This document shows, one piece after another, positions 8,048-20,366 of a stretch of 51,912 nt of DNA; position 1 is the first letter of the stretch; every line of letters starts with the position of its first letter. Below the pieces are notes generated by a model. The model saw only the letters and a list, made by a program, of their open reading frames with translations. It had not been told where the DNA came from and did not search any database. The stretch covers positions 1 to 51,912 of IMG/VR virus record IMGVR_UViG_3300030104_000504; one strand, written 5' to 3'. The DNA comes from a virus. Its lineage: Duplodnaviria > Caudoviricetes. Position numbers and translations under genes: made by a program.

Positions 8048-10040
8048 TTTGCATTCCTATTATTTGTGCCATTATAGCTGCTTCTTCTGGATCGTTTAGA
8101 AGTTCATCAGGGTCTAAATCTAAACTATAAGCAAGCTCACTAATAAGCTTATTAATTTTAATAAACGGAGCAACAGCAGGATTTGCTGCTGTCTGTAAAA
8201 ACATAGTAAGTCTTTGACTCCGTACCTCTTTTTGCATCAAGCTGTTTGTGCCTGTAGCTTTTACTTCAAGATCTCCTTCAACACCTAAATCAGATTCTAA
8301 AAACTGCATATTCCATTGGAAGTAGGCTTCTCCTAAAGGTTTAAGAAGGAAATCATCTAAGTTCTTTATTACTGTTTTAATATTAAGTGAAGCTGCTCCT
8401 AATAGCATAGACATACCAGAAGCAGTTCTTGTCATACTTTGTACACCTGTTTGACCGTGACTGTAGCTAGGAATACCTGTTTGTTCATCTGCTAACTGTC
8501 TAAATTTGTCAAACATCATCATGTTTTCTTGTGATGTATTAGGAAACTTCAAACCATTTATAGCTTGACCAGGAACTCCTGCTTGTCTTCTGAATACTTT
8601 ACCAGGATAAATCTCCATACTTTGACCGCCAACTAGTGCAGTCTCATCTACATCAAATACAAGAGAGCCAGATAGTGCTAGATTATCAATAGCCATTCTA
8701 GCGTGACCATTCATAATCTTTTGGCTATCGTCCATGTTTTCTGCTACACCTATACCGAAAAAGCTATAGGGATTTTTTTCATAAGTAAAAGCATGGTAAG
8801 GAACTCTATAAGGAGTAAATGGATTAACTACTGCTCTAAGCATTTTACCATTACAAACCCAAGCATTTATTTGAACTTCATCTAAATCATCTACATCTTC
8901 TTCAATTTCCATTCCTACTTGACGAGCATATTCTGCATCCATTACTCCCCAATACTCAAGAACTTCAAACTGACTAGCACCATATTCATCTGTACGACTA
9001 TCATCTTTTAGTTCATGTTCATAGTCTTTTTCTACATAGTTAGGCCCCATCTGTAAACATTCACGTATTGCATCTTTGTCAAAATATGGAAGTTTACTAA
9101 GCCCTCTAAGTTGAGTACGATTCATACGATGTCTATGAAATACATACTCTGCTTCGTTTATTGTTGTTGCATTTGGATCTGGAAAGAAATCCCAAATACT
9201 TACAAACTCTATACGTGGAACTCTAACTGAAATAGGTTGATAAGTTCTATTACCTTCTTCATCTTCATCCCAACGATTAAGAGTTTTGTTAAAGTTAAAA
9301 GGCCCTTTAACTACACCAGTGCCGAACAATGCTGCTTCAAATAAAGAGTTTCGTATTTCACTAGCTCCATTAGATTCTTCAATCTGATCATGGATTAGCT
9401 TTTCCATACGCCTTGCAGCTTTTTGAGCAGGGTTTACTTCAAGAGCTTCTGGTGTTGGTGACAACCCTTCCCGCAACAAACCTTCTTCTTCTGCTCTTTT
9501 TTCAATGTGTTCTTCTTCAAACTTTCCTGTTCCATAAGTAGCTCCAGGTTTTAGTGTTTTACCATCTCCTTCGTATCCTACATCAAAAGGATTTTCTATA
9601 GCTTTCTCTGTTCCTTCATCAGGCGTAGTTGTTTCTAAACCAGGTACAGGATTTTGAATATCTAAATGAGCATGTTCAGCTACACCTTCAGGAACTTTAG
9701 TTTCACTTACACCTATAGGAAATTTGTTTGATCCGAAAATAACATCGACCAACTGACCAAATGCAGCGAGTACTTTGGTCTTTGTGACTTTAACAAATAC
9801 TCTAGATTTCTCGGACTCCCTAAAGCGTACACTTTTACCATATAGTCCTCTATAATTATGATAAGCTTCTAACCACCGTTTTTCATCTAAATCACGAGCA
9901 GACTCAGCAGACTCAAATCTATCTTGAATTAAACCCACAAGATTATTCTGTAGGTTCTCTTCAAGAGTAAGATTTAATCCCTTTTCATCCTCTACTTCTT
10001 CAAAGTAAAGATCATTAGATGTTAAAGTATTTTCAGCCAT
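7872..10040 (-). CDS. Portal protein
   Basis: 722 aa; SRVFVKVTKTKV, ALFGTGVVKG, WDFFPDP, FFGIGVAE, RTASGMSML motifs; follows terminase. Confidence 0.92.
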   Translation of the reverse strand: MAENTLTSNDLYFEEVEDEKGLNLTLEENLQNNLVGLIQDRFESAESARDLDEKRWLEAYHNYRGLYGKSVRFRESEKSRVFVKVTKTKVLAAFGQLVDVIFGSNKFPIGVSETKVPEGVAEHAHLDIQNPVPGLETTTPDEGTEKAIENPFDVGYEGDGKTLKPGATYGTGKFEEEHIEKRAEEEGLLREGLSPTPEALEVNPAQKAARRMEKLIHDQIEESNGASEIRNSLFEAALFGTGVVKGPFNFNKTLNRWDEDEEGNRTYQPISVRVPRIEFVSIWDFFPDPNATTINEAEYVFHRHRMNRTQLRGLSKLPYFDKDAIRECLQMGPNYVEKDYEHELKDDSRTDEYGASQFEVLEYWGVMDAEYARQVGMEIEEDVDDLDEVQINAWVCNGKMLRAVVNPFTPYRVPYHAFTYEKNPYSFFGIGVAENMDDSQKIMNGHARMAIDNLALSGSLVFDVDETALVGGQSMEIYPGKVFRRQAGVPGQAINGLKFPNTSQENMMMFDKFRQLADEQTGIPSYSHGQTGVQSMTRTASGMSMLLGAASLNIKTVIKNLDDFLLKPLGEAYFQWNMQFLESDLGVEGDLEVKATGTNSLMQKEVRSQRLTMFLQTAANPAVAPFIKINKLISELAYSLDLDPDELLNDPEEAAIMAQIIGMQNAGQATGAEAGPINEEQAAMGAAGGVPQQPQDLGATGTGGGNIGVGGVPQPGEDEFTR

Positions 10041-10043
10041 CTA

Positions 10044-10631
10044 TTAGTCAGGCAATACGCCAAGGTGTAGGAATTCAACCAAGAACGTCACAGTAGTAGC
10101 TGCTGTAGCTAGGTCTGCTCCGATTGGAGTAAGTCTTCCATATAAAGTTCTTGCAGATGCTGTGTAAAGAGTTCCTGCAATTACAATAGCTTCAGAAGTA
10201 GCAGGGCCACCTACAACACCAGCAGTTACGCTAGTGCTAACAAATGCATTAGCTGCATGACCATGAGAGTTCTGAATAATGTAAAGAGGTGCATTAGCAG
10301 ACCATGTGACTGCTGAACCACCATCATCTAGAATAGCTTCTGTAGCAATAATCTGCGTACCGCCAGAAGAAGTACCTAGTGAAAAGTCTACGTCATTACC
10401 ACTACCACCCGCTGTAACAATGTTACCTGCTGGAATAGCAATCAAGTTTCGTATGATTGTATCTGCTGGTTGAGTGAATGAAACATCTGTGTTAGTATCA
10501 TCAGTTACTGCAATAGTATCTGTAGTTACAGAAGTCCAAGAAGTACATACGTTATCTGACAATGCACGTACATCTGCAAGTGATGCAGAGTCCCTCCCTG
10601 TATTTCTTATGCTTACAACTGGATTTGCCAT
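10044..10631 (-). CDS. Putative virion structural/decoration protein
   Basis: 195 aa Thr/Ala/Val-rich, beta-like, GGAG RBS; function inferred only. Confidence 0.55.
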   Translation of the reverse strand: MANPVVSIRNTGRDSASLADVRALSDNVCTSWTSVTTDTIAVTDDTNTDVSFTQPADTIIRNLIAIPAGNIVTAGGSGNDVDFSLGTSSGGTQIIATEAILDDGGSAVTWSANAPLYIIQNSHGHAANAFVSTSVTAGVVGGPATSEAIVIAGTLYTASARTLYGRLTPIGADLATAATTVTFLVEFLHLGVLPD

Positions 10632-10745
10632 ATTAATCTCCGTTTAGTTTTTTAATTAATTCGTACTGCTCTTTAATTTCTTTTTGTTGTGCTTTTAACC
10701 TGTTTTCTTGTTTAGATATTTTAGATCTCTTTTCAAATTTAATTC

Positions 10746-12560
10746 TCAATATCCAAATTCCTTATCTACTGGCGTATAAGCTTGTTCCATTCTCATATTT
10801 CTAAATTGACTAAATACATCATTTACTTTAGGTCTTGACATAATTAAATACCTTAAAGCATCGTATGCATGATCAGGAGCATGAGTATCTACATCTTCAG
10901 GATTTGATTTATCTAAAGGAATAGATTGAAGCTCACGTATGAGATTTGGGCAAGTATTAAAAATTTGTACTTTAGGTCTGCCACTTGGTTGTATTCTCAA
11001 ATATTCGTGAAGCTGTATCTTTCCTTGAATTCTGTTTTTGTCGGCCCTACGGAGCTTATGACCTGCACGTTGTAATGTCTCTCCTACTGTAGGGCCTGTA
11101 GTTCCTGTTCTATTCCATGCTGCTGTATCAAGTACACCTGCAACTGCATAAGGATCAGCTAACTCCATGTTAGTGATCATCTGCGCTAAATCAACTCCTG
11201 TTAAATTTTTCTTATATAATTCTCTATATATAATTAATGTGCCGTCAGAGGGATCAACAGTACCCCATACACAAGCACTTTCAGAAGCATAACCATAGTC
11301 AATTCCTTTTACTCTTTCCCATCCTATAGGTATTTCAAAAGGAGTAATTACATGAGCATCTAAATCAAACTCTGTAAAAGCTGCTCCTTCTGTAACATCC
11401 CAATTACCTTCAAGTAACTGTTTACGTTGAACATCAGGCAATGCATTTAACATTTGCTCATATCTGCCATCTTTTGCAAGATAAGGGTTATCTTCTAACC
11501 TAGCAGGTATGAACCTACGTGTAAGCCCATCATCCCCTGTAAAAGTTTCGTTAGGCTCATTAGGATCTACGTAACGCTTTTTAACCCAAGTAGCTCCTAC
11601 ACCACCAGGGTTAGCCGTACAACGCATATATGGCGTTATTTCTGGATCTGTCGTTCTAAGTCTTGAAGATAGATAGTTCCAAGAAAACTCTGTTGATAAA
11701 TGAGTAATCTCATCAAAACCTATCCAAGAATATGCTTGACCCTGATAACGATATACATCTGCATCTCTTTCAAGGAAGCCAAACTCTATTTTGCATCCTG
11801 AAGGAAATGTCCAAACCTTTTCTACTTCTCTAAACTTACAACCTGGAAAAGCTCTAGGATATAACTCCCTAGACTTATCTATTAGTTCTCTAAGCTCTGG
11901 CATAGATCTTCTAAGTATTAATGCCCTATGAGCCGCTCTGTGAGCGTATCTAAGAGGGTCTACAAGCATAGCATATGACTTGCCACCTCCTGCTGCTCCT
12001 CCGTACAGTACATCCGTTTCTGGAGCTGCTAGGAAGTCTGTTTGAGGCCCTTCATTAGGTTTAAATATAACTTTAGTTGCTTCTTTTACTTTTGGAGTTA
12101 ACAAATCTAACTCATCTTCTGTAGCAACTTTACCTAATGAGTCTTGACCTAACTTAGTTTGAATCTTAGTCTGAGCGTTTAATGAACTTTTAGCAGACTT
12201 TAATTTCTTGTCAAGCTTTTCTACTCTTTTTTGTTTAGCCCTTAAAGACTGTCTAGCGGCTATTTTAGCTTTATTTGCTGAACTATAGTTATATTTACCA
12301 GGAGAGCCTGTAGATTTTCGCTCATCCTTTACGTATTTTGAAAGAGCTTGCACTGATATACTGTATCCTTTAGCCTCTATGAATAATCTACCTTCACGTA
12401 TTGACTTGATGGCTCCTGATACGATACCTTCTACAACCTCTTTCAGAACTTTATATTTAGCCTCGTTACGTACAAACTGTTTATTTTCTACATCTGCATC
12501 ATATGCAAATGGAGCTATGCCTTGACTTCTAGGTTTAGTTTTCGGCAACTTCATATTCAC
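10746..12560 (-). CDS. terL: Terminase large subunit with N-terminal extension
   Basis: Walker A YGGAAGGGKS, Walker B IGFDE, motif III TANPGG, nuclease GIDYG and DHAYDALRY. Confidence 0.95.
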   Translation of the reverse strand: MNMKLPKTKPRSQGIAPFAYDADVENKQFVRNEAKYKVLKEVVEGIVSGAIKSIREGRLFIEAKGYSISVQALSKYVKDERKSTGSPGKYNYSSANKAKIAARQSLRAKQKRVEKLDKKLKSAKSSLNAQTKIQTKLGQDSLGKVATEDELDLLTPKVKEATKVIFKPNEGPQTDFLAAPETDVLYGGAAGGGKSYAMLVDPLRYAHRAAHRALILRRSMPELRELIDKSRELYPRAFPGCKFREVEKVWTFPSGCKIEFGFLERDADVYRYQGQAYSWIGFDEITHLSTEFSWNYLSSRLRTTDPEITPYMRCTANPGGVGATWVKKRYVDPNEPNETFTGDDGLTRRFIPARLEDNPYLAKDGRYEQMLNALPDVQRKQLLEGNWDVTEGAAFTEFDLDAHVITPFEIPIGWERVKGIDYGYASESACVWGTVDPSDGTLIIYRELYKKNLTGVDLAQMITNMELADPYAVAGVLDTAAWNRTGTTGPTVGETLQRAGHKLRRADKNRIQGKIQLHEYLRIQPSGRPKVQIFNTCPNLIRELQSIPLDKSNPEDVDTHAPDHAYDALRYLIMSRPKVNDVFSQFRNMRMEQAYTPVDKEFGY

Positions 12561-12957
12561 CCTCTACTACCGTTTTAGCAGGAAGAATAAATAAAGAACC
12601 CCCATCAGTTTCTACGTTAACATCAATCCTATCTTGTTTACCTAGTCCTGTACGATCCAAGATTGTTTGTGCAGCTTGTAAACGCACATTAGCCTGGGGC
12701 ATAGGATCATCAGTATTCATAACATCAACAAGTTTCATAGCCGCTTGGGGTGCAGATTGAGCGAGGATTTGAGAGGCCAGTTCTATTATTTCATTTTTAA
12801 GTGATTTAATTACTTGGAAATAGCTGCCTTCGGCATACCCTGCAAGCTCCGCTGCTTCTTTTGGATCACCTCCTGTTTGGATTAGATAGCCTAAGAACTT
12901 TTGCTGCTTGTCTGTTAATTCTCTTTCTTGTTGTTTTTGAGGTAAATATCCATTCAT
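12535..12957 (-). CDS. Terminase small subunit-like protein (start reassigned from 12993 to ATG 12957)
   Basis: LTDKQQKFL...AAELAGY HTH pattern, AAQTILDRTG; upstream of terL; the track's TTG start is the -35 box of its promoter. Confidence 0.75.
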   Translation of the reverse strand: MNGYLPQKQQERELTDKQQKFLGYLIQTGGDPKEAAELAGYAEGSYFQVIKSLKNEIIELASQILAQSAPQAAMKLVDVMNTDDPMPQANVRLQAAQTILDRTGLGKQDRIDVNVETDGGSLFILPAKTVVEGEYEVAEN

Positions 12958-12964
12958 GCTGTAC

Positions 12965-12993
12965 ATTATAGTAGTGTATTTAGAGTTTGTCAA
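12965..12993 (-). promoter_or_regulatory. Perfect consensus sigma70 promoter driving packaging/structural arm
   Basis: TTGACA (12993-12988), 17 bp spacer, TATAAT (12970-12965). Confidence 0.9.
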
Positions 12994-13011
12994 GTCTTTT
13001 TTAAATAAAAC

Positions 13012-13040
13012 TTGACAAACTTACGATTCAACTGTATACT
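13012..13040 (+). promoter_or_regulatory. Sigma70 promoter facing the early arm
   Basis: TTGACA 13012-13017, 17 bp spacer, TATACT 13035-13040. Confidence 0.85.
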
Positions 13041-13567
13041 GGAGTAACTCCCTATGGGGGTTGTGCATATATATACCTCGTATATAATACTTTTAAAAGC
13101 TTTAAAAGGTGAGCGCAACTTTCCTAAGTATTGACAACTTGAAAAGCCCTTAAAATTTTTAAGATTGCATTACACCCCCACCACCCTGCCACGGCCACCT
13201 GCCCAGCCCCTCTCAAACTTATAGAGTATAACTTTTGAAAAGCTTCTGAAGCCTTGCAAGATTGATGCCAAGTTTAACAGCCCTGAAAATATTTTTAAAA
13301 GTTTTCAAATGTGGCCTAAATATTGCATAGCTCTGTAAATATATTCCATAGAGTGTACAATTTTTAAAAGGTATTCCGAAGTTTCATAAATACAGCAATA
13401 CTTTTAAAAACTTCTAAATACTTTCAAAAACTTATGAATTATTCACCATACTATCACGCTCCATTTTATCTCCATTATTCCTTATAGATTTCTAAAGAAA
13501 TTTAGCCGAGAATCTTAACCGAGTCGAGGCACGTAGCCGAGACATTAACAAATAGGGAATATTTAAA
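13041..13567. other. Long non-coding region; candidate genome terminus/origin
   Basis: No ORF >=60 aa, many TTTTAAAA/TTTTGAAA tracts, one C-rich island, lies at the strand divergence next to terS. Confidence 0.55.
13215..13236 (+). repeat. Dyad motif copy 1 (centre GAG)
   Basis: AAACTTATAGAGTATAACTTTT. Confidence 0.9.
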
Positions 13568-14161
13568 ATGGATCTACAAATAAACAAGGACAACACAGTC
13601 AAACTTCCAACTGCTATCAACAATTCAGAAGTAGCAATCGACGTGAAAGAAGTGAGAGAAGTAGTTAAAAAGCTTCTATCAGCAGAATTAGTAATCGAGA
13701 ATTTAACGCCTCGAATATTTAAAACATTTAGAGAAGTTATACATTCTCACAATGTAGAAGAATTTTTAAAGCTTCAAAAAGCTTTTTGCAATGCGTCAGG
13801 CTTTAAGAATGTATCTCAATTAGCTGAAGCTTCAGGCACAAAAACTATTCAAACCATGATTTCTACTTTGAAAAGATACACCAAAGAATTCACTGGCAAG
13901 CCTGAAAGCTTTGGAGAGATTCAAAAAGAATTGAAGGCAGTAGCGCAAGCTAAGAATTCAACACCCGCCAATGGCAAAGATGGGAAGACACCCGATTCTA
14001 CTGTTGAATCTGGAACAGAGTCAGAAGTACCTAGTGCGATTCCATCAAGTATTGTTGACCCGCATATAATCGAGTTTATCAACAAGGCACCTCGGCTATC
14101 TGTAGAACAACAGAAAGAAATTGGAAAGGTATTGGCTCAAATCAACTCACAAATCAAGTAA
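13568..14161 (+). CDS. First early gene, hypothetical (197 aa)
   Basis: ORF with AGGGA RBS; helical N-domain, flexible linker, short helical C-domain; no family recognised. Confidence 0.75.
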   Translation: MDLQINKDNTVKLPTAINNSEVAIDVKEVREVVKKLLSAELVIENLTPRIFKTFREVIHSHNVEEFLKLQKAFCNASGFKNVSQLAEASGTKTIQTMISTLKRYTKEFTGKPESFGEIQKELKAVAQAKNSTPANGKDGKTPDSTVESGTESEVPSAIPSSIVDPHIIEFINKAPRLSVEQQKEIGKVLAQINSQIK

Positions 14162-14174
14162 GGGTATTCCCTAT

Positions 14175-14201
14175 AGACCTAGGCAAGTCTCTAAACTGCC
14201 T
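14175..14201 (+). other. Compact H-type RNA pseudoknot candidate
   Basis: AGAC-CT-AGGCA-A-GTCT-CTAAAC-TGCCT: stem1 AGAC/GTCT, stem2 AGGCA/TGCCT. Confidence 0.55.
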
Positions 14202-14262
14202 CGCTTGCTGTGGATTTCTACACGTAGTAGAATAGAAGCTATACAATATGGATTTTAGAAAA

Positions 14263-14284
14263 AAACTTATACTGTATAACTTTT
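14263..14284 (+). repeat. Dyad motif copy 2 (centre CTG)
   Basis: AAACTTATACTGTATAACTTTT, 14 nt before ATG 14299. Confidence 0.95.
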
Positions 14285-14298
14285 GAAAAGGTTTAAAG

Positions 14299-14538
14299 AT
14301 GAAACAATACGCTCATATTTCAACATGGGATTTGCAAGGAAGCTTGTACTTGCTACCTATTTGCGGATCTAAAAAGGGTCATAGATTAGAGGGTCAAAAA
14401 GATATAAACTCTCAAGATATTATCCATAGATCGGACATAGACGATGAGTGGTTAAAAACTAATGTTGCTTGCAAGCAATGTTTAAACTTATACTTAAAAC
14501 CAACGAAAGAAGAATCAACACAGTTAAGCTTGTTCTAA
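14299..14538 (+). CDS. 79 aa Cys/His protein ending in beta-clamp motif QLSLF
   Basis: H...PICG...CKQC possible Zn site; C-terminus STQLSLF. Confidence 0.7.
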   Translation: MKQYAHISTWDLQGSLYLLPICGSKKGHRLEGQKDINSQDIIHRSDIDDEWLKTNVACKQCLNLYLKPTKEESTQLSLF

Positions 14539-14559
14539 AACTTATACTGTATAACTTTT
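14538..14559 (+). repeat. Dyad motif copy 3 (centre CTG); part of 43-bp exact repeat 14537..14579
   Basis: Overlaps TAA of upstream ORF; 14537..14579 is identical to 14812..14854. Confidence 0.95.
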
Positions 14560-14572
14560 GAAAGGATTTAGA

Positions 14573-14812
14573 ATGGATACTGAAGACTCAAGACCGACTC
14601 TAGAACTACCAGAATTTTTAAGCCAACAGGCAGACATTGCGTCAGCATCGGTTTACAATTACTATGTAGAAAACAAGCTAGATTTAAATGGCTTGTTTGA
14701 AGTTGCGGAGAATGGAGACGCTCGTTATAGTGAGCATGGTCAGGACTTATTCAATGGTTTCTATGACGATGCCGAAGAATTTCTTCTTGGACTGTACAAA
14801 AAGGGAAGTTAA
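14573..14812 (+). CDS. 79 aa acidic hypothetical protein (start reassigned to ATG 14573)
   Basis: AAGGA RBS then ATG; 17 D/E versus 5 K/R by hand count. Confidence 0.75.
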   Translation: MDTEDSRPTLELPEFLSQQADIASASVYNYYVENKLDLNGLFEVAENGDARYSEHGQDLFNGFYDDAEEFLLGLYKKGS

Positions 14813-14834
14813 AAACTTATACTGTATAACTTTT
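14813..14834 (+). repeat. Dyad motif copy 4 (centre CTG); part of 43-bp exact repeat 14812..14854
   Basis: Immediately follows TAA 14810-14812. Confidence 0.95.
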
Positions 14835-14847
14835 GAAAGGATTTAGA

Positions 14848-15084
14848 ATGGATAGAGAATGTCAAAAAAGAAAAAGTGTTAGTAGTTCTTGCTATGTTAT
14901 TTCTCCTGAAGTGCAAGAGCTTGCAAACAAAATGAAAAGGTTTGTAAAGGAACAAGAAAAAAGAAGAAACGACAAAGAAATTTTGGAAGCTCTTCTATCT
15001 TGTGAAGATCCAATTAAAGCAGTAGTAATGATGCAAGCTGAAAGAAAAAGGCAAGCTGAACTAATTAAGGATAACGATGAATAA
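14848..15084 (+). CDS. 78 aa helical hypothetical protein (start reassigned to ATG 14848)
   Basis: Same RBS/ATG context as 14573. Confidence 0.7.
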   Translation: MDRECQKRKSVSSSCYVISPEVQELANKMKRFVKEQEKRRNDKEILEALLSCEDPIKAVVMMQAERKRQAELIKDNDE

Positions 15085-15220
15085 AGAATCAAAAGCGATT
15101 GGCAGAAAAGCCGCAGGGTCTTATGGTAGACCACGAAACGCAAACAAGCGTCGAGGCTATAACGCTAAACGTGCGGGTAATAAAGCAATTAGAAAGGCAG
15201 GTAAAAACTATGAGGTTTAA
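15077..15220 (+). CDS. 47 aa Arg/Lys-rich peptide (not in ORF track)
   Basis: AAGGA RBS; MNKESKAIGRKAAGSYGRPRNANKRRGYNAKRAGNKAIRKAGKNYEV; coupled to both neighbours. Confidence 0.6.
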   Translation: MNKESKAIGRKAAGSYGRPRNANKRRGYNAKRAGNKAIRKAGKNYEV

Positions 15221-15368
15221 CTATTTGGTTGAGGTAGAATATAGAGATGGTTCAGTTCGGGCCAAGCTCTTTAACTACAAAGAGGCTGACAAGGCAAACA
15301 GGTATCACAGTAGAATGGAGAATACCTGGGGCAAATCTATCAAAAAAGTGACCACAAAAAGGATTTAA
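15210..15368 (+). CDS. 52 aa hypothetical protein (3' part of track ORF 15099..15368)
   Basis: ATG 15210 overlapping previous ORF end; MRFNYLVEVEYRDGS... Confidence 0.55.
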   Translation: MRFNYLVEVEYRDGSVRAKLFNYKEADKANRYHSRMENTWGKSIKKVTTKRI

Positions 15369-15369
15369 A

Positions 15370-16125
15370 ATGAGAGAATTTAGTGGGGGTAAACTCCTTA
15401 AAATAAAGGTAAAGCCAAAACCTAAAGGCTTTATCTTGTACGATGGGCCAAGTATTCTTGATGGTAAACCGATAGCTGTTATTGCTACGCTGTCTACCAG
15501 CAATAGAAAAACTGGCCCCATGATTCAGACATGGATTATTAGATCAGATATAGATCCAGTGTCAGCATCAAAAGAGGGAGAAGATTCTAGTATCTGTGGG
15601 AGTTGTCCTCATAAGCATAACTTAGGTGGTGCTTGCTATGTAAATATTGGTCAGGCACCATTAGCAATATTCAAAGCTTATAAACGTGGGCTGTACCCGC
15701 ATATAGATTACGAGGCAGACCATATTCATTTTGTTGGGCGTATGGTTAGGCTTGGTGCTTATGGTGATCCATCTGCTATGCCTTATGAAGTAGCAGAAAA
15801 AGTTGTTAGCATGGGTCGTGGTCATACTGGCTACACTCATCAGATAAGGCATAAGAAATTTGACAAGAGGTTCTTAAACTTGTGCATGGTTTCAGCAGAT
15901 ACACCAAAGCAAGCCTTAAAGTATCAAGCTATGGGAGCTAAAACATTTAGAGTTGCGCTAGAAAACGACTCGATGTACGATAGTGAAATTGAATGTTTGA
16001 GTGAGTCCGAGGGGTTACAGTGTGATGCTTGTGGATTATGTAATGGTCAACAGCAAAGCATTGCAATCAAAGTACATGGATCTAGAGCGAGTAAGTTCAA
16101 GTCCAAGTTGATCGCAGTAGGATAA
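15370..16125 (+). CDS. Cys-rich phage protein, possibly Fe-S / radical-SAM-like (GP88-like)
   Basis: SNRKTGPM, CGSC...CY, VRLGAYGDP, TGYTH, C-terminal C..CDACGLC and VHG. Confidence 0.55.
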   Translation: MREFSGGKLLKIKVKPKPKGFILYDGPSILDGKPIAVIATLSTSNRKTGPMIQTWIIRSDIDPVSASKEGEDSSICGSCPHKHNLGGACYVNIGQAPLAIFKAYKRGLYPHIDYEADHIHFVGRMVRLGAYGDPSAMPYEVAEKVVSMGRGHTGYTHQIRHKKFDKRFLNLCMVSADTPKQALKYQAMGAKTFRVALENDSMYDSEIECLSESEGLQCDACGLCNGQQQSIAIKVHGSRASKFKSKLIAVG

Positions 16126-16145
16126 ACTTATACAATATAACTTTT
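16124..16145 (+). repeat. Dyad motif copy 5 (centre CAA)
   Basis: AAACTTATACAATATAACTTTT overlapping TAA of 15370..16125. Confidence 0.95.
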
Positions 16146-16334
16146 AACATAACAAAGGAGGTCTTATGACATGGTGAGTCAAAGCTCACACACTTATATT
16201 CGGTACAATTTGAATGAATGTAAGCCAATTAAGTTTGGAAAAGTGATCGATAAAAAGGGCAGATAAAGAAGTCCCTTGTGTGTTTACTTAGCCTACGGTT
16301 CTAAAGGTAGGCTAGACTAAGTACATAAGATTAA

Positions 16335-16356
16335 AAACTTATACAATATAACTTTT
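16335..16356 (+). repeat. Dyad motif copy 6 (centre CAA)
   Basis: AAACTTATACAATATAACTTTT followed by AAAGGAG RBS of 16370. Confidence 0.95.
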
Positions 16357-16369
16357 AAAGGAGAAGTAA

Positions 16370-16579
16370 ATGTTCGATATAATAGTGATGAAGGCATCAA
16401 AGTTTTATGAGGAGTCTAGCTCTGGCTATGTTGCCATCACACCTAATTGGGTCTTTGAGATTGCGTTTGATCAGATACCTAGGTTACAATTTGGTATCAG
16501 CAGGGATGAGGGGTTTGAAAATTCCTACTGTATATGTTTAGGCAGCATCTGTTTTGGTGCGACAAAAAAGGAGATATAG
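16370..16579 (+). CDS. Hypothetical protein (69 aa)
   Basis: Strong AAGGAG RBS. Confidence 0.7.
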   Translation: MFDIIVMKASKFYEESSSGYVAITPNWVFEIAFDQIPRLQFGISRDEGFENSYCICLGSICFGATKKEI

Positions 16580-16580
16580 A

Positions 16581-17204
16581 ATGAGAGTTCTAGTAGCGTG
16601 TGAATCAAGTGGTACGGTAAGAGAAGCGTTCAGGAAGTTAGGCTATGATGCATGGTCAAATGATATGTTACCTGCTGATGACTCTTCTGAGTACCATATA
16701 CAAGGGGATTGTGTTGAGGCTATCAAGAGTAGGGAGTGGGATCTAATAATAATGCACCCTCCATGTACAGCGTTAGCAGTATCAGGTAACGCATGGTATG
16801 GTAAAGATATGCCAAAGCATCAAGAGCGTTTAGCAGCTATCGAGTGGACGATGAATCTTTGGAAGCTTGCTACTAGTGTTTGTGATCATGTATGTATGGA
16901 GAATCCAGTAGGAGTGCTGCCAATTAAACCAACACAGTACATACAGCCATATCAGTTTGGTCATCCTGAATCTAAGAAAACCGGGCTGTGGCTTCATGGG
17001 TTAAATAGTCTTGAAGATACTGACAATGTTAAGGAGATACACGACTCTCTACCACGTAAAGAGAGAATGAGAATACATTATCTCTCACCCTCTAAGGACA
17101 GGTGGAAGATAAGAAGTAAAACTTTTCAGGGGATAGCAGATGCAATGGCAGCGCAATGGCCTCTACAGTTTTCGTTAATGTTCAAGCAAAAGAAAGAGGC
17201 GTAA
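16581..17204 (+). CDS. DNA (cytosine-5) methyltransferase-like protein
   Basis: MRVLVACESSG (SAM-binding motif I variant), catalytic HPPC, ENP motif VI; AGGAG RBS before 16581. Confidence 0.8.
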   Translation: MRVLVACESSGTVREAFRKLGYDAWSNDMLPADDSSEYHIQGDCVEAIKSREWDLIIMHPPCTALAVSGNAWYGKDMPKHQERLAAIEWTMNLWKLATSVCDHVCMENPVGVLPIKPTQYIQPYQFGHPESKKTGLWLHGLNSLEDTDNVKEIHDSLPRKERMRIHYLSPSKDRWKIRSKTFQGIADAMAAQWPLQFSLMFKQKKEA

Positions 17205-17208
17205 AGTA

Positions 17209-17367
17209 ATGAAAGAATTTAAAGTCACTGTGACCAGCGGCTACAAGAAGATCTATTACGTTCAAGCAGAGGATTGGGAACAGGCCGAAGAGATTGTTTC
17301 AACAACCGAAGATGATCCCGATTTTGAAGAGTTCGAGAGTGATGAGATTGCAACAGAGGAGGTGTAG
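17209..17367 (+). CDS. 52 aa very acidic protein (not in ORF track)
   Basis: GAGG RBS; MKEFKVTVTSGYKKIYYVQAEDWEQAEEIV...EEV; 17 D/E versus 4 K. Confidence 0.7.
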   Translation: MKEFKVTVTSGYKKIYYVQAEDWEQAEEIVSTTEDDPDFEEFESDEIATEEV

Positions 17368-17501
17368 GTACATAGTTTGTGTACGTAAATGGAAGAGTTG
17401 GTATTGGATGGATACCTATAGTTCTGCTGAGAAGGCAATGTATGCACAGAATTTCTATAGGAAACACTACAAAGTTACTAAAATTTTTAAGGAGGAAATA
17501 A

Positions 17502-17762
17502 GTGTTTAAGTTTACTAAGAAACACTACGCAAAAATAAAAGTCCCTAGATACATCTTCACAAGGATACCTAATGATGAAGAAGGTAATCAGTTTGTGGAG
17601 CAGTTGAAAAAATATCTTAACAAAGATAGGTACGAGCTGCGAAAAAGAGGTCAAGGATTAGTTGACGGTGAGGATTGGAGGCGTTATACTCATGGTCAGC
17701 CGATAAGCAAATCAACTCATTTAAGAATTTACATAGAGGATAAATTGAATGACAACAACTAA
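17502..17762 (+). CDS. Hypothetical protein (86 aa)
   Basis: AGGAGG RBS, GTG start. Confidence 0.75.
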   Translation: MFKFTKKHYAKIKVPRYIFTRIPNDEEGNQFVEQLKKYLNKDRYELRKRGQGLVDGEDWRRYTHGQPISKSTHLRIYIEDKLNDNN

Positions 17763-18111
17763 AGAAAAAATTGTACTCACTGACAAGCTAATTGTTTCTA
17801 GCCGTGGGAAGCTCTGCGATAGATACTATCGAGCAGTCCTGATCAAGGGAGGAAGATTCGATAACGATAACCCTCCCAACGGCAACGCAGATACCATCGT
17901 GGTTGAGCAGCCATTTAAGGATGGTTCATGGGGGCCTACTGGTGGTAGCTGGTACGCTGAAACCTTACTAGGTCTTGATGAGTACGGTACTAGTGATGAT
18001 CCAAGCGACTCAATTTACATAGACGGTGGAGCGCAATGGCTAATCGAGGGTGGTATGCTCATAGCATTGAACGCCTATAAGAAACTAGGAGAAGAACGTG
18101 AAGCATCTTAG
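17749..18111 (+). CDS. Hypothetical protein (120 aa)
   Basis: GAGGA RBS, coupled in operon. Confidence 0.75.
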   Translation: MTTTKEKIVLTDKLIVSSRGKLCDRYYRAVLIKGGRFDNDNPPNGNADTIVVEQPFKDGSWGPTGGSWYAETLLGLDEYGTSDDPSDSIYIDGGAQWLIEGGMLIALNAYKKLGEEREAS

Positions 18112-18304
18112 TAAGATTAATCTCAAGTCAATTTCTGATGACCAGGTTAGGGATATATGGGCAGAAACTATTGACATACAGACAGCTAATCTTGTTGCTG
18201 ATAGATCCTCTAAGGATACTATATATTCAGATGCAGTAGCTCTGATGTACAAGTGTCAAAAAGAATTGAACAGACGCAAAGATTTTAGGAGGGAAGTTAA
18301 GTGA
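18098..18304 (+). CDS. Hypothetical protein (68 aa)
   Basis: AGGAG RBS, overlapping neighbours. Confidence 0.7.
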   Translation: MKHLSKINLKSISDDQVRDIWAETIDIQTANLVADRSSKDTIYSDAVALMYKCQKELNRRKDFRREVK

Positions 18305-18495
18305 GTTTATTTAACACGATTGCAAGAGCAGCATACGGTGATGAGTTCGTTGACAATATTGTTAGTGAGTGTGATCACGAGTGGGTACATTACCCTACAG
18401 AGTACGAGTCTTTATCTGGAAGAGGTACTGTGGTACAATATCCTGAGTATTATGAATGTGAGAAATGTGGAGAACAACATGGGCCAAGTGATTGA
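18301..18495 (+). CDS. Small zinc-ribbon-like protein (CxH...CxxC)
   Basis: CDHEW...CEKCG; GGAGG RBS. Confidence 0.7.
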   Translation: MSLFNTIARAAYGDEFVDNIVSECDHEWVHYPTEYESLSGRGTVVQYPEYYECEKCGEQHGPSD

Positions 18496-18670
18496 TATTA
18501 ATGCAGTTTTAGACATGAAAAGATTTGTGCGTAAGCACGATCTTCAATCTGAAGCTACTGAAGAAGCCATCGAAGATGGTACAAGATTGATCTTGAAATA
18601 TGGGGATGATTTCTTTTTAGGCTTCATCGAAATGTACATGGAGGAACTTGTTAGGAGGAATAAAAAATGA
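18479..18670 (+). CDS. Hypothetical protein (63 aa; 3' part of track ORF 18320..18670)
   Basis: GGAG RBS before ATG 18479 (MGQVIDIN...). Confidence 0.65.
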   Translation: MGQVIDINAVLDMKRFVRKHDLQSEATEEAIEDGTRLILKYGDDFFLGFIEMYMEELVRRNKK

Positions 18671-18837
18671 TTGTGTATGCACAGCATCCAAGAACAAAAG
18701 CACAAAGATGCATGTCTATACCACTAAACAAAAGAGAGTATCACGCTTTTACAAGAGGCAAAAATACTTTCAATTCAAAATTAACAAAAGATCAAATCAG
18801 TTTTATTAGAACTGGTTTATTAATCAAGGAGGATTAA
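18667..18837 (+). CDS. Hypothetical protein (56 aa, not in track)
   Basis: AGGAGG RBS, ATGA overlap; MIVYAQHPRTK...FIRTGLLIKED. Confidence 0.65.
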   Translation: MIVYAQHPRTKAQRCMSIPLNKREYHAFTRGKNTFNSKLTKDQISFIRTGLLIKED

Positions 18838-19011
18838 ATGATCTATCGAATCAGGGTACGTAAAAACAGATATGGTGTTAGTCATGGACGTAGTTTTATA
18901 GGCTTTCACATAGGTAAAAGATCTTTATACCTGGCTAAAGGAAAGTTTCCAGTGAAGATCAGTGACGTTAGGGGATGGGAACAGATAACAACTAAAGGAG
19001 CAAAGGCGTGA
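18838..19011 (+). CDS. Basic hypothetical protein (57 aa, not in track)
   Basis: AGGAGG RBS; MIYRIRVRKNRYG...GFHIGKRSLY; GTGA overlap with next gene. Confidence 0.7.
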   Translation: MIYRIRVRKNRYGVSHGRSFIGFHIGKRSLYLAKGKFPVKISDVRGWEQITTKGAKA

Positions 19012-19223
19012 GAGACATAGACGATTATCACTACTTTTGTGGTGACTTGAATGACGTTGAAGAATCACTGAATGAACAACAAAGAGTAGAGTCTTTAGCT
19101 GAGTTGTTCTCAGGAGAAGGAGAAACAGTTGAAGATTTTTGCCTAAAGCAAAAGAAAATGCTTGACTTCTCTGAAGATCCATGCTACCCTAGTTCACATA
19201 ATTTTTACGGAGAAAGACAATGA
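19008..19223 (+). CDS. Acidic hypothetical protein (71 aa)
   Basis: AAGGAG RBS, GTG start. Confidence 0.65.
   Translation: MRDIDDYHYFCGDLNDVEESLNEQQRVESLAELFSGEGETVEDFCLKQKKMLDFSEDPCYPSSHNFYGERQ
19162..19190 (+). promoter_or_regulatory. Candidate internal promoter for the replication module
   Basis: TTGACT, 17 bp spacer ending TGC (extended -10), TACCCT; 30 nt upstream of ATG 19220. Confidence 0.5.
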
Positions 19224-19444
19224 GTGCTACAGATCCTAACGTAGAGTTTCTATCTACTCTAGATGATTTTTGGGCGCAGTTATGGACTTTAAAGATAGGT
19301 GGTAGTCAACCTAGTGAAAGAATAAAGCAAAGGTTTTTTTCTTTTGTTAAGGATAGATGTTCTGATGTTGATGATTGGAGGTTAACTGACGATGTTATCG
19401 GCTCACTATTCAGTGAGTTTGTTGAAGAGTTGGGGAACTGGTAA
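19220..19444 (+). CDS. Hypothetical protein (74 aa)
   Basis: GGAG RBS, ATGA overlap. Confidence 0.7.
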   Translation: MSATDPNVEFLSTLDDFWAQLWTLKIGGSQPSERIKQRFFSFVKDRCSDVDDWRLTDDVIGSLFSEFVEELGNW

Positions 19445-19644
19445 TGTTTAAATTTACTAAGGAGCAATACGAAAAGATGCTGTCAATGTATGGCAGCTTG
19501 TTGTACAAAAACAAATGCATCTTAACTACTAAGAACGAAGGCACTAATGTTATTGTTAGTGTTGTAGAGGGCATCGACATAGACTTTTATGAAGATGTTT
19601 ACTTACCATTTATACGACAAGAGGAGAAAAAAATATGCGTATGA
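19444..19644 (+). CDS. Hypothetical protein (66 aa)
   Basis: TAATG coupling. Confidence 0.65.
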   Translation: MFKFTKEQYEKMLSMYGSLLYKNKCILTTKNEGTNVIVSVVEGIDIDFYEDVYLPFIRQEEKKICV

Positions 19645-20108: not shown

Positions 20109-20117
20109 GGAGATAAT

Positions 20118-20363
20118 ATGACTGAAGAAGTTCAAAAACCAGCGGCAGTATATCGTAGTGAGGAAAAGGATTACGATGTATCCAAGCTAAATCCTGAAGG
20201 CCAGCAAGCTTTTATGCTGTTAGCTCAGTTGCAGCAGAATGAATTGCGTACAGCAGAGATTACTACCAATCATTACAAAGCAGCACAAGCTCATTACAAT
20301 TCTGTAATTAAAGCTAACCTTTCAGATGATGCATTGATCGAGGAAGAAAACGTGGAGACATAG
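20118..20363 (+). CDS. Hypothetical protein (81 aa)
   Basis: AAGGAG RBS; YDVSKLNPEGQ then coiled coil. Confidence 0.75.
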   Translation: MTEEVQKPAAVYRSEEKDYDVSKLNPEGQQAFMLLAQLQQNELRTAEITTNHYKAAQAHYNSVIKANLSDDALIEEENVET

Positions 20364-20366
20364 CTT

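What the first reader, a model, noticed from the sequence alone, without database searches (positions are those of the whole stretch)
13215..16356. Six-copy dyad motif at early gene junctions: candidate cassette/recombination-site array or operator regulon
Seen: AAACTTATA-NNN-TATAACTTTT at 13215 (GAG), 14263/14538/14813 (CTG) and 16124/16335 (CAA), all in one orientation, with invariant arms and a variable centre; a degenerate copy lies near 14236. Three copies overlap or abut the upstream TAA and four run straight into the next RBS, so they mark gene boundaries. Known: the AAACTT-N9-AACTTT geometry matches lambda Int core sites (attB CTGCTT-N9-AACTTG), where only sites with matching centres recombine, and repeated regulatory cassettes shuffle early genes in T4-type phages (PeSL elements). 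Inference: this is either an integron-like system for swapping anti-host genes or a set of operators/phage promoters for one dimeric protein. I recognised no recombinase in the window, so an enzyme would be host-supplied or novel (13568..14161 is a candidate binder).
Basis: partly seen in the sequence, partly recalled or inferred. Interest (0 to 1): 0.85.

Follow-up and report, generated by a model that had tools for sequence, protein, structure and literature searches.

The report
Early-gene junction dyads with cognate protein
An uncultured marine phage marks the starts of its first genes with six identical copies of a short symmetric DNA site that travels together with one unknown early protein, most likely that protein's docking site for switching those genes off, and related phages swap genes at these sites.

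Summary
AAACTTATA-NNN-TATAACTTTT occurs six times exactly, all on the + strand, in 13215-16356; chance expects 0.17 matches. The window is a 99%-complete, 51.9-kb phage record with T7-like replication genes. I found no phage RNA polymerase, integrase or resolvase.

The conserved unit is a 13-bp dyad, TTAYA-NNN-TRTAA, with A-rich and T-rich flanks. It sits just after a stop codon, mostly 15-21 nt before the next ATG.

Relatives carry lineage-specific versions of the dyad:
- TTATA/TATAA in the window and its near relative R1
- TTACA/TGTAA in two further lineages
- (C)TAACA-NN-TGTTA(G) in a fourth

All 19 loci that encode a homologue of the 197-aa first early protein (13568-14161) carry the matching dyad. 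None of 8 related loci without that protein carries any.

In three lineages, gene replacements and indels between relatives begin or end at the dyads. Crossover points vary and no recombinase is present.

Best reading (about 0.45): these are docking sites for a paired regulator, probably the 197-aa protein, that damps early genes. They also act as short homology patches for cassette exchange. An mRNA-level operator, a phage-specific promoter and true site-specific recombination remain rivals. No binding or transcript data exist.

The parts
12965..12993 (-). Consensus sigma70-type promoter (TTGACA-17-TATAAT, 12 of 12) facing the packaging and structural genes
13012..13040 (+). Consensus sigma70-type early promoter (TTGACA-17-TATACT, 11 of 12) at the head of the early operon. 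The same divergent pair is present in lineages B, C and D.
13172..13214 (+). C-rich, G-poor block directly before the leader dyad. A comparable block precedes the leader dyad of lineage D (L322 about 3419-3500).
   Evidence: read directly
13215..13236 (+). Dyad copy 1 (centre GAG), in the leader about 170 nt after the early promoter and 332 nt before the first gene. No RBS or ATG beside it.
13568..14161 (+). First early gene, 197 aa, member of a small unnamed family. Candidate cognate binder of the dyads.
   Evidence: (no PHROG or Pfam hit)
14263..14284 (+). Dyad copy 2 (centre CTG; TTG at the same place in R1)
14299..14538 (+). Cassette gene wA, 79 aa, no family. R1 has an unrelated membrane-protein gene at this place.
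14538..14559 (+). Dyad copy 3 (CTG). Its first base is the last base of the upstream TAA.
14573..14812 (+). Cassette gene wB, 79 aa, acidic, no family. Absent from R1.
14813..14834 (+). Dyad copy 4 (CTG), abutting the upstream TAA
14848..15084 (+). Cassette gene wC, 78 aa, no family. Absent from R1. Overlaps the start of the next gene (15077) with no dyad between them.
15370..16125 (+). 251-aa early gene (phrog_2554, function unknown), shared with dyad-less relatives. Its TAA overlaps dyad copy 5.
16124..16145 (+). Dyad copy 5 (CAA)
16146..16331 (+). Unit between copies 5 and 6 (31-aa ORF at 16171-16266). Missing from R1 exactly from dyad to dyad.
16335..16356 (+). Dyad copy 6 (CAA; CAG at the same place in R1), followed by the RBS and the 69-aa gene 16370-16579

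Best explanation
The six copies are docking sites for one phage-made, probably paired, sequence-specific protein. The best candidate is the 197-aa product of the first early gene.

Proposed sequence of events:
1. Host RNA polymerase starts at the consensus promoter at 13012-13040 and makes the early transcript.
2. The 197-aa protein accumulates and binds the 13-bp dyads. One lies in the leader and one lies right before the RBS of most of the following small genes.
3. Binding turns these earliest genes down. I favour binding to duplex DNA, blocking transcription through or from the sites, as 'stoperators' do. The same sites read in the mRNA would give a translational block instead.

Second consequence: every early cistron carries the same 22-45-nt junction, so ordinary or microhomology-driven recombination between co-infecting relatives swaps, deletes or inserts whole 'RBS + gene' units at these junctions.

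Shown here: the sites, their placement, their conservation, their lineage-specific versions, their co-occurrence with the protein family, and the breakpoint enrichment.

Inferred: binding, the identity of the binder, the dimer, the direction of regulation, and DNA versus RNA as the target.
For: (1) Specific constraint.
- Six exact copies against 0.17 expected, with no intermediate forms.
- Cores are unchanged where flanks diverge. In L018 vs L173, 6 pairs of 13 nt show no change at 87% background identity (P about 2e-5). In L320 vs L328, 40 arm positions show no change at 81% (P about 2e-4). In window vs R1, 40 arm positions show no change at 94% (P 0.08). All.
- In lineage A the centre changes (2 of 9 positions) while the 19 specified positions hardly do (1 of 57; Fisher 0.047).

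(2) Dyad symmetry kept through change.
- In 29 distinct copies of lineages A-C, core positions 4 and 10 are T..A (10 copies) or C..G (19 copies), never mixed.
- Lineage D has TAACA-NN-TGTTA, again symmetric.

(3) Cognate protein.
- 19 of 19 loci with a member of the 197-aa family carry the dyad type of their lineage. These are the window, R1, L018, L173, L174, L175, L176, L177, L319 and L320-L329.
- 0 of 8 related loci without it (L010-L017, found through the 251-aa gene at 59-88% identity) carry either type.
- L010 and L011 are closer to the window in the 251-aa gene (86-88%) than L018 is (62%), yet lack both protein and dyad. The two therefore move together.
- The family gene always lies at the head of the array, behind the same divergent consensus promoters.

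(4) Copies that make sense for a DNA site but not for an RBS-linked RNA site.
- Leader copies in the window and R1, and in 10 of 10 lineage D loci.
- A copy centred about +29 after a perfect TTGACA-17-TATAAT in L177.
- A copy 39 nt before the family gene itself in L176 and L177.

(5) No stable RNA fold. The hairpin is absent from the RNA minimum-energy folds of 5 of 5 junctions, with z between -0.34 and +0.67.

(6) Cassette exchange, as breakpoints within 30 nt of a dyad:
- window vs R1: 5 of 8 (P 3e-4)
- L018 vs L173: 4 of 6 (P 0.006)
- L320 vs L322: 4 of 6 (P 6e-4)
- L325 vs L328: 4 of 8 (P 0.002)
- L322 vs L325: 4 of 12 (P 0.02)
- L320 vs L328: 4 of 10 (P 0.005)
. Contigs of other samples show further arrangements.
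Against: - No binding, transcript-end or expression data exist. The only RNA libraries holding the region are available as contigs, which cannot show starts or ends.
- The 197-aa protein has no recognised DNA-binding domain. There is no Pfam or PHROG hit and no PDB sequence match (best E 0.04). The structure model is poor (pLDDT 57). Fold searches gave nothing above helical-bundle background. Its pI is 8.5 here but 4.6-7.7 in relatives. The helix-turn-helix I thought I saw near residues 82-106 is my own reading only.
- Co-occurrence rests on four lineages, not 19 independent cases. A 57-aa gene (18838-19011) and the methyltransferase are also shared among dyad-bearing lineages.
- 23 of 31 copies in A-C and 33 of 44 in D lie 10-21 nt before an ATG. 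This fits an RNA-level or promoter role as well as simple packing.
- Lineage B has no leader copy within 3 mismatches.
- Exact identity of copies within a genome could partly reflect recent spread or gene conversion rather than selection.
Confidence: 0.45

Rival explanations
1. The site acts in the mRNA. A 5-bp hairpin (UUAYA-NNN-URUAA) next to the Shine-Dalgarno sequence is bound by a phage protein (the 197-aa protein or another) that blocks or tunes ribosome loading, or marks a processing site. This would resemble a translational operator regulon for early genes (T4 RegA or gene 43 operator type; recalled).
For: - All copies lie on the sense strand of the early operon.
- 23 of 31 copies (lineages A-C) and 33 of 44 (lineage D) end 10-21 nt before an ATG, directly before the SD.
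- In lineage B one copy lies in codons 2-8 of an ORF, still inside a ribosome's footprint.
- The T..A to C..G change keeps a base pair.
- The variable 3-nt centre fits a loop.
Against: - The hairpin is not stable. It is absent from the minimum-energy fold at 5 of 5 junctions, with z about 0.
- In lineage D the arms are separated by 2 nt, so the inner pair would have to open.
- Leader copies with no gene beside them in lineages A and D, and the copy 50 nt before an ATG in L177, have no RBS to control.
- The loop is free in lineage A, whereas protein-bound RNA hairpins usually fix loop bases. This last point is general knowledge.
Confidence: 0.2
2. The dyads are promoters, possibly overlapped by an operator. 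Each early cassette would bring its own start signal, read by host RNA polymerase with a phage factor (the 197-aa protein acting as a small sigma-like or appropriating factor) or by an unrecognised phage polymerase. This would parallel the repeated promoters of PeSLs or the intergenic repeats of halovirus HF2.
For: - The position just upstream of the SD would give 10-20-nt leaders.
- The core of lineages A-C always contains a minimal -10-like word (TA-NNN-T or CA-NNN-T). The CTG, TTG and CAA centres make TATACT, TATATT and TACAAT, and TATACT is the -10 of the main early promoter. This is read directly.
- Site and protein lineage change together, as promoter and polymerase or sigma do.
- The array sits behind the gene of the candidate factor.
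- Precedents exist for intergenic repeats that are promoters: PMC2839356 (passages) and PMC8707807 (search listing only).
Against: - There is no -35 word and no TGn. The phages' own consensus promoters look entirely different.
- Lineage D has no -10-like word in the dyad (read directly).
- Symmetry kept by changes on both arms is not expected of a sigma-type promoter.
- One copy lies inside the start of an ORF.
- No RNA polymerase was found. No PHROG or Pfam hit appears among 45 and 29 ORFs. The PF00940 search was silent, but its controls were silent too, so that test is inconclusive.
Confidence: 0.13
3. The dyads are true site-specific recombination sites of a cassette system (integron-like). 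They would be cut and rejoined by an unrecognised enzyme: the 197-aa protein itself or a host Xer or integrase-type enzyme.
For: - Cassette gain, loss and replacement are bounded by the dyads in three lineages. One unit (16146-16331) is missing from R1 exactly from site to site.
- A cognate, lineage-specific protein exists.
- The layout is a short inverted repeat with a variable centre.
Against: - No tyrosine or serine recombinase is present, with working controls.
- The 197-aa model is all-helical with no catalytic-domain match.
- A 2-3-bp centre fits neither the 6-8-bp overlap of tyrosine recombinases nor the 2-bp staggered core within longer sites of serine recombinases (recalled).
- Crossovers are not at a fixed point. 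One event ends at the ATG after a 43-nt identical junction. One joins by 8 nt of RBS homology. Others lie somewhere inside the repeat.
- Orthologous sites differ in the centre.
- Many other mosaic breaks in the genome lie far from any dyad.
- The phage has its own annealing and exonuclease genes for ordinary recombination.
Confidence: 0.06
4. There is no trans-acting partner. The element is a cis-acting translation or linker module: an A/U-rich enhancer like the T7 gene 10 epsilon word plus an insulating weak hairpin. It has spread with the cassettes and is kept identical by recombination.
For: - The right arm and flank, URUAACUUUU, shares UAACUUU with the T7 epsilon enhancer UUAACUUUAA, which also sits upstream of an SD (PMC9590205, passages).
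- The distance to the ATG is fixed.
- Copies within a genome are identical, as expected of spreading repeats.
Against: - The epsilon-like word is absent from lineage D and altered in several lineage B copies (TGTAATTTTT).
- Symmetric change of both arms and lineage-specific versions tied to one protein family are not expected of a ribosome-directed signal, because the ribosome is the host's.
- Leader copies have no gene to enhance.
Confidence: 0.08

Closest known systems
17-bp dyad repeats of Cluster O mycobacteriophages (Corndog; PMC4351075, passages read)
   Same: - Invariant inverted arms separated by a variable 3-bp centre.
- Dozens of copies, many between genes.
- Phages without an integrase and not obviously temperate.
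- The authors predict a dimeric DNA-binding protein.
- One repeat pair flanks a gene present in only one genome.
   Different: - The Corndog arms are 7 bp and GC-rich. The copies are spread over the whole genome, and a third lie inside genes.
- According to the authors the copies are not tied to translation starts and are rarely at insertions.
- No cognate protein was named.
- Here the arms are 5 bp and AT-only, confined to the first 3.2 kb of the early operon, placed 15-21 nt before ATGs, enriched at exchange breakpoints, and linked to one protein family.
Stoperators and operators of Cluster A mycobacteriophages (L5 gp71, TipsytheTRex repressor; PMC9283540, passages read)
   Same: - A 13-bp site repeated in short intergenic spaces and near promoters.
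- Oriented with transcription.
- Bound by a phage protein of about 180-200 aa, which stops transcription.
- Site and protein specificity diversify between related phages.
   Different: - Those sites are asymmetric, bound by a monomer with two domains, number more than 20 across the genome, and serve lysogenic immunity.
- Here the site is symmetric, there are six copies in one early operon, no lysogeny genes were found, and binding is untested.
- No sequence or fold similarity to that repressor was detected. This is inconclusive.
PeSL mobile regulatory cassettes of T4-type phages (PMC2839356, passages read; PMC4122927, listing only)
   Same: - A conserved repeat between small, non-essential early genes.
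- Insertions, deletions and replacements between close relatives are bounded by the repeats.
- Crossover points vary within the repeat.
- The repeats were compared with integrons by their authors.
   Different: - A PeSL is about 100 bp, with a consensus sigma70 promoter plus a G+C-rich stem-loop terminator.
- Here the repeat is 22-45 bp, with no consensus promoter and no terminator.
- Mini-circles were not looked for here.
N4 virion-RNA-polymerase hairpin promoters (PMC4496689, passages read)
   Same: - Several copies in the first kilobases of the early region.
- Inverted repeats with a 3-nt loop.
   Different: - N4 needs a GC-rich heptamer centred at -11, fixed bases at -11, -10, -8 and +1, and a giant virion polymerase.
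- Here the stem is AT-only, the loop is free, and no such polymerase was found.
Integron attC/attI sites and lambda Int core sites (recalled, not checked in a paper here)
   Same: - Cassette arrays with a repeated site at each gene boundary.
   Different: - Those systems need a tyrosine recombinase, which is absent here.
- attC sites are recognised by folded structure, not by sequence.
- Lambda core sites are inverted 9-bp sites around a 7-bp overlap, whereas the AACTT words here are direct repeats.
T7 gene 10 epsilon translational enhancer (PMC9590205, passages read)
   Same: - UAACUUU lies directly upstream of an SD.
   Different: - Epsilon is a single cis word with no dyad and no cognate protein.
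- The word is not kept in lineage D.

Membership tests
PeSL (promoter-early stem-loop) cassettes | Consensus sigma70-type promoter inside the repeat | tested here: not met
   the only 11-12 of 12 promoter matches near the finding are at 12965-12993 and 13012-13040. At the dyads there are only 9-10 of 12 chance-level hits (14833, 16108, 16354). The region holds 15 hits against 21 expected.
PeSL (promoter-early stem-loop) cassettes | G+C-rich stem-loop acting as terminator in the repeat | tested here: not met
   no + strand terminator-like site lies between 13000 and 17000. The dyad stem consists of 5 A-T pairs.
PeSL (promoter-early stem-loop) cassettes | Gene gain, loss and replacement between close relatives bounded by the repeats | tested here: met
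PeSL (promoter-early stem-loop) cassettes | Excised mini-circles | not testable with these tools
   Only contigs could be laid. No circle-type joint was listed.
Stoperator/operator regulon (Cluster A mycobacteriophages) | Many copies of one short site in short intergenic spaces, co-oriented with transcription | tested here: met
Stoperator/operator regulon (Cluster A mycobacteriophages) | Asymmetric 13-mer bound by a monomeric HTH plus stoperator-domain repressor | tested here: not met
   The site is a dyad. The profile of the 197-aa family finds no such repressor in the PDB sequences.
Stoperator/operator regulon (Cluster A mycobacteriophages) | Repressor binding halts transcription | not testable with these tools
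   There are no binding or transcript data.
Integron-like or lambda-Int-type site-specific recombination | Tyrosine (or serine) recombinase encoded by the element | tested here: not met
   no match at E up to 1 in a 99%-complete genome. Controls ring in 14 and 13 of 14 genomes.
Integron-like or lambda-Int-type site-specific recombination | Crossover at one fixed point within the site; identical centres needed | tested here: not met
   Breakpoints fall at the ATG, at the SD and within the repeat. Orthologous copies differ in the centre.
N4-type hairpin promoters | GC-rich heptamer centred at -11 with fixed loop and stem bases; virion RNA polymerase | tested here: not met
   No polymerase appears among the PHROG or Pfam hits. 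The defining features are taken from PMC4496689.
T7-type single-subunit RNAP promoters | Phage-encoded T7-like RNA polymerase | tested here: inconclusive
   The PF00940 search found nothing, but its controls were silent too. There is no RNAP among the PHROG hits of 45 ORFs of 100 aa or more plus small early ORFs.
Dimeric operator regulon (generic repressor-operator pair) | Dyad symmetry kept by matched changes in both half-sites across lineages | tested here: met
Dimeric operator regulon (generic repressor-operator pair) | Cognate DNA-binding protein that dimerises and binds the site | not testable with these tools
   Co-occurrence only. The homodimer prediction never got into the queue, and no protein-DNA co-fold is on offer.

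The most novel reading that the evidence does not exclude
The 197-aa family and its dyads form a self-contained, recombinase-free cassette system. The first early protein is a new kind of junction-binding protein that silences the early cassettes. By stalling polymerases at its sites, it also actively provokes template switching or recombination exactly there. The three specificity types (TTATA, TTACA, TAACA) would then act like immunity or compatibility groups. These groups would decide which co-infecting phages can silence each other and trade early genes.
Probability: 0.12. Interest if true: 0.8.

Novelty: new variant of a known kind. Interest (0 to 1): 0.55.

Why it matters
Repeated dyads between early genes have been seen in several phages, but their reader is almost never known. 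Here a candidate reader can be named, because the site changes together with one small protein family across four lineages of abundant, uncultured marine podophages. That gives a direct bench test: three proteins against three sites, including cross-combinations.

If the pairing holds, it would explain how a phage without its own RNA polymerase times its earliest genes. It would also give a concrete case of regulatory sites doubling as joints for swapping host-takeover genes. And it would assign a function to a protein family that currently has no annotation.

Tried and rejected
- **Motif scans of public collections.** The lineage A word in viral contigs gave 29 loci. By BLAST only the three loci from R1 are related to the window; the rest are single chance hits.
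- **RNA evidence.** The two RNA libraries that hold parts of the region are kept as contigs, so no 5' ends, strand or level could be read. Contig ends at the dyads are what repeats do to assemblies, and I draw nothing from them.
- **197-aa protein.** Pfam and PHROGs gave nothing. The ESM Atlas gave only unnamed viral clusters. The AlphaFold model from a 9-row alignment has pLDDT 57. Foldseek against the PDB had best E 0.5. VIA wide gave Z up to 5.8 to TetR C-terminal bundles, below the helical background stated by the tool. The PDB profile search had best E 0.04. A profile search of 1.8 billion representatives found 11 proteins, none named. No homologue exists in 50,697 cultured phage records for three family members.
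- **Jobs that never ran.** A second fold with the 16-row alignment was not accepted. The homodimer job never entered the queue (18 hand-ins), so dimerisation is untested.
- **Family members P0014 and P0015.** No loci were found in viral contigs.
- **Common origin of the 275-nt units.** Ungapped identity between them equals the shifted controls. The R1 unit contains a 10-N gap, so its equal length does not count.
- **HTVC103P.** The nearest cultured relative by DNA polymerase (50%) has no such dyad in its early region.
- **L018 vs L319.** Two of its four 'near dyad' breakpoints are caused by an N run, so I do not use that pair.
- **L178-L183.** These six loci with only 25-54-aa partial matches to the family and no dyads were left out of the co-occurrence count.
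- **Earlier notes of this scan.** Nothing was found for this genome or this protein.

Full report
**What the window is.** The window is a whole IMG/VR virus record (51,912 bases, linear, CheckV completeness 99%). PHROG scans of its larger ORFs and the small early ORFs give the map of a podovirus-like phage:
- Packaging, head and tail genes lie on the - strand at 1-12993.
- Lysis genes, three large unassigned proteins and fibre genes lie on the - strand at 31433-51912.
- A + strand block at 13568-31005 starts with many small unassigned genes. It continues with a T7-type SSB, primase-helicase, DNA polymerase, nucleases and ribonucleotide reductase.

The DNA polymerase is closest (50% identity) to Pelagibacter phages HTVC103P, HTVC104P and HTVC115P. 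The preprint that describes that group reports a replication module and an HMO-2011-like structural module (10.1101/2019.12.14.876532, passages).

I found no RNA polymerase. There is none among the PHROG or Pfam hits. A PF00940 search was silent, but so were its controls, so that test is inconclusive. There is no integrase and no resolvase, and for these the controls ring.

At the switch between the two strands stand two divergent consensus sigma70-type promoters, 12 of 12 and 11 of 12 matches. A 574-nt leader then precedes the first early gene.

**The observation.** The pattern occurs six times exactly, all on the + strand, at the stated coordinates and with the stated centres. Chance expects 0.17 matches. 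Nothing lies between exact copies and chance-level 4-5-mismatch hits. The 'degenerate copy' near 14236 belongs to the chance-level class. Three copies overlap or abut the preceding TAA. Four are followed after 18-19 nt by an ATG with an RBS between, and one by a 31-aa ORF after 30 nt. One lies alone in the leader.

**Anatomy.** The two arms are an imperfect inverted repeat. A 5-bp core pair (TTATA/TATAA) flanks the 3-nt centre, followed outward by a C opposite a C and then AAA opposite TTT.

As RNA the hairpin does not appear in the minimum-energy fold of any of 5 junctions, and the folds are no better than shuffles (z between -0.34 and +0.67). As single-stranded DNA it is worth -0.5 to -2.1 kcal/mol on the top strand (three copies) and -3.4 on the bottom strand (one copy). 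It is therefore not a self-sufficient structure.

**Close relative R1.** One record, here called R1 (G001, 49,034 bases, 94% complete), is 93-99% identical over most of its length. It has four copies. The arms are unchanged apart from one base in the leader copy. The centres at the same places differ: CTG here against TTG there, and CAA here against CAG there. The centre therefore drifts while the arms are held (2 of 9 centre positions against 1 of 57 specified positions, Fisher 0.047).

The gene content between the copies differs in three ways:
- Where the window has wA, R1 has an unrelated small membrane-protein gene.
- wB and wC are absent from R1. There a dyad with a 43-nt stretch identical to copy 2 and its leader runs straight into the 47-aa gene (15077 in the window).
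- The unit 16146-16331 is missing from R1 exactly from dyad to dyad.

One replacement (16593-17355) and many further mosaic breaks elsewhere in the genome have no dyad nearby.

Contigs from other samples show more arrangements: the R1-type membrane gene followed by a dyad and wA; the 69-aa gene skipped through 8 nt of shared RBS; and a variant without a dyad after the 251-aa gene. These are contigs, so they show which forms exist and nothing about RNA ends.

**Wider relatives and the key result.** Ten loci found through the 251-aa gene include eight (L010-L017, 59-88% identity) with no such dyad at their tightly packed gene junctions.

Searching instead with the 197-aa first early protein brought loci whose early genes are punctuated by a related dyad:
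- AAACTTACA-CAA-TGTAACTTTT in L018, L173, L174 and L175, and in a binned contig L319. I call this lineage B.
- AAACTTACA-AAA-TGTAA in L176 and L177, lineage C.

Over 29 distinct copies of lineages A-C, core positions 4 and 10 are T..A or C..G and never mixed. The rest of the 13-nt core outside the 3-nt centre is invariant.

A distant member of the same protein family is P0017. It scores E 4e-5 against the family profile and E 2e-8 by BLASTP to the window's protein over 97 residues. It led to ten more loci, lineage D. Each carries 3-5 copies (44 in all) of a different dyad, CC-TAACA-AW-TGTTA-G. One copy lies in the leader about 450 nt before the family gene. Of the other 34, 33 lie 15-21 nt before an ATG and one, the first of a tandem pair in L320, lies 44 nt before it.

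No locus mixes dyad types, and the eight dyad-less relatives have neither type. In total, 19 of 19 loci with a family member carry the dyad of their lineage, and 0 of 8 without a member carry any. Six loci with only short partial matches were left out of this count.

These are four lineages rather than nineteen independent cases. The association nonetheless cuts across relatedness. By the 251-aa gene, L010 and L011 (86-88%) are nearer to the window than L018 (62%), yet lack both protein and dyad.

All four lineages share the same frame: divergent consensus promoters, a long leader, the family gene first, then the dyad-punctuated small genes.

**Constraint.** Between L018 and L173 the flanks are 87% identical, yet the six cores show no change in 78 positions (P about 2e-5). 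Between L320 and L328, at 81% identity, 40 arm positions show no change (P about 2e-4).

**Cassette exchange.** I took the ends of colinear BLAST blocks as breakpoints and counted those within 30 nt of a dyad core in either genome:

| Pair | Breakpoints near a dyad | P |
|---|---|---|
| window vs R1 | 5 of 8 | 3e-4 |
| L018 vs L173 | 4 of 6 | 0.006 |
| L320 vs L322 | 4 of 6 | 6e-4 |
| L325 vs L328 | 4 of 8 | 0.002 |
| L322 vs L325 | 4 of 12 | 0.02 |
| L320 vs L328 | 4 of 10 | 0.005 |

Chance is at most 0.08-0.15 per breakpoint. The lineage D pairs share genomes and are not independent of each other. The L018 vs L319 pair is spoiled by an N run.

The exchanged unit is 'RBS + gene + stop', and the constant part is the A-tract, the dyad and the T-tract. 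Crossover points are not fixed. Some lie inside the repeat, one at the ATG behind a 43-nt identical junction, and one in 8 nt of RBS. This is the behaviour described for PeSLs of T4-type phages, where crossovers were mapped at several points of the repeat (PMC2839356, passages). It speaks for ordinary or microhomology-driven recombination. The phage has an annealing-type SSB, an endonuclease VII and a Cas4-like exonuclease of its own for this.

**What it most likely is.** A short symmetric site is held exactly, changes on both arms at once between lineages, and is always found together with one fast-evolving small protein encoded at the head of the array. That is the signature of a cognate protein-site pair.

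I favour binding to duplex DNA, with a damping effect on the earliest genes, for three reasons:
- Some copies have no RBS to act on. These are the leader copies in lineages A and D, a copy about +29 after a perfect promoter in L177, and a copy before the family gene itself in lineage C.
- The RNA hairpin is not stable.
- In lineage D the arms are only 2 nt apart.

The closest described parallels are two. One is the stoperators of Cluster A mycobacteriophages: 13-mers in short intergenic spaces, bound by a 183-residue repressor that halts elongation (PMC9283540, passages). The other is the unexplained 7-3-7 dyads of Cluster O mycobacteriophages (PMC4351075, passages).

Against my reading, the protein has no recognisable DNA-binding domain, its model is poor, and every fold or profile search was empty or at background. 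Nothing here shows binding. The fixed distance to the ATG fits an mRNA operator or a promoter just as well.

A minimal -10-like word (TA-NNN-T) is built into the core of lineages A-C, and some centres turn it into TATACT or TACAAT. There is no -35, the phages' real consensus promoters look quite different, and lineage D lacks the word. I keep the promoter reading as a rival.

The integron or lambda-Int reading fails on the recombinase, on the geometry and on the variable crossover points.

**Novelty.** Two library searches ('HTVC103P'; 'HMO-2011' with promoter, intergenic and repeat) turned up no description of this motif or protein family, but these searches are narrow. No cultured phage in the 50,697-record collection encodes the family. 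I consulted no supplementary files.

Notes from other windows of this scan describe similar dyad arrays at early-gene junctions in unrelated phages, mostly without a named reader. They are untested leads. They suggest the layout is common, which tempers the surprise.

What is new here is the candidate reader and the three matched specificity types, which can be tested directly. I rate the finding as a new variant of a known kind, with interest 0.55.

Noticed in passing
window 12965-13040: Two divergent, near-perfect sigma70-type promoters (12 of 12 and 11 of 12) sit back to back between the small terminase gene and the early leader. The structural operon therefore also seems to have a consensus host promoter. 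The same pair occurs in lineages B, C and D (L173, L177, L322).
   Followed up: partly
window 13172-13214; L322 about 3419-3500: A C-rich, G-poor block lies directly before the leader dyad and recurs in the leader of the distant lineage D. It could be a Rho-loading stretch or another leader signal. This was not tested.
   Followed up: no
window 13086-13440 (family D12); L320 3320-3690; L173 3500-3900: The leaders are full of a second repeat family built on CTTTT-N-AAAAG / AAAGCTTT palindromes. The right flank of dyad copies 1 and 2 (CTTTTGAAAAG) forms one of them.
   Followed up: no
window 14263-15087: Copies 2, 3 and 4 are exactly 275 nt apart, although the two 79-aa genes between them are unrelated and reach 275 in different ways (14-nt against 13-nt leader; overlapping against abutting stop). 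Ungapped identity equals background. Unexplained, and possibly a coincidence.
   Followed up: partly
window 1-140 vs 51005-51144, 573-790 vs 51331-51548: Both ends of the record lie in similar fibre-like genes (94% and 72% identity between the ends). The linear record is probably cut inside a repeated fibre region, not at a true genome end.
   Followed up: no
L010 2854-2995 (and L011 leader): Dyad-less relatives have their own palindromes in the leader only (GTTATAAGCTTATAAC and variants, three copies 49-50 nt apart). Their first early gene belongs to a different family, which may be a parallel regulator-site pair.
   Followed up: no
L014 6756-7409; L017 3726-4007: Other relatives separate their small early genes with different repeats of 39-49 nt that contain G+C-rich hairpins followed by T runs. 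These are more like the promoter-terminator cassettes of T4-type phages.
   Followed up: no
L015 805-872: The leader of this relative holds tandem copies of GTTATCCACA. I recall this as the DnaA-box word, a possible use of the host initiator. It was not checked against a paper.
   Followed up: no
L173 7068-7328 (same in L018 5880-, L319 8762-): The last dyad of lineage B lies inside codons 2-8 of an 86-aa ORF, right after its ATG, instead of before an RBS.
   Followed up: partly
L319 (contig JAAXIF010000071.1, 44.8 kb): A contig binned into a Sphingobacteriales genome bin is a lineage B phage of this group, 94-97% identical to L018. It is more likely a phage contig caught by binning than a host assignment.
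   Followed up: no
window 15370-16125: The 251-aa Cys-rich early protein (phrog_2554, function unknown) is the most widely shared early gene of the group (59-99% identity in 10 loci). In lineage B it is itself a dyad-bounded cassette that can be replaced by an unrelated 231-aa gene.
   Followed up: partly
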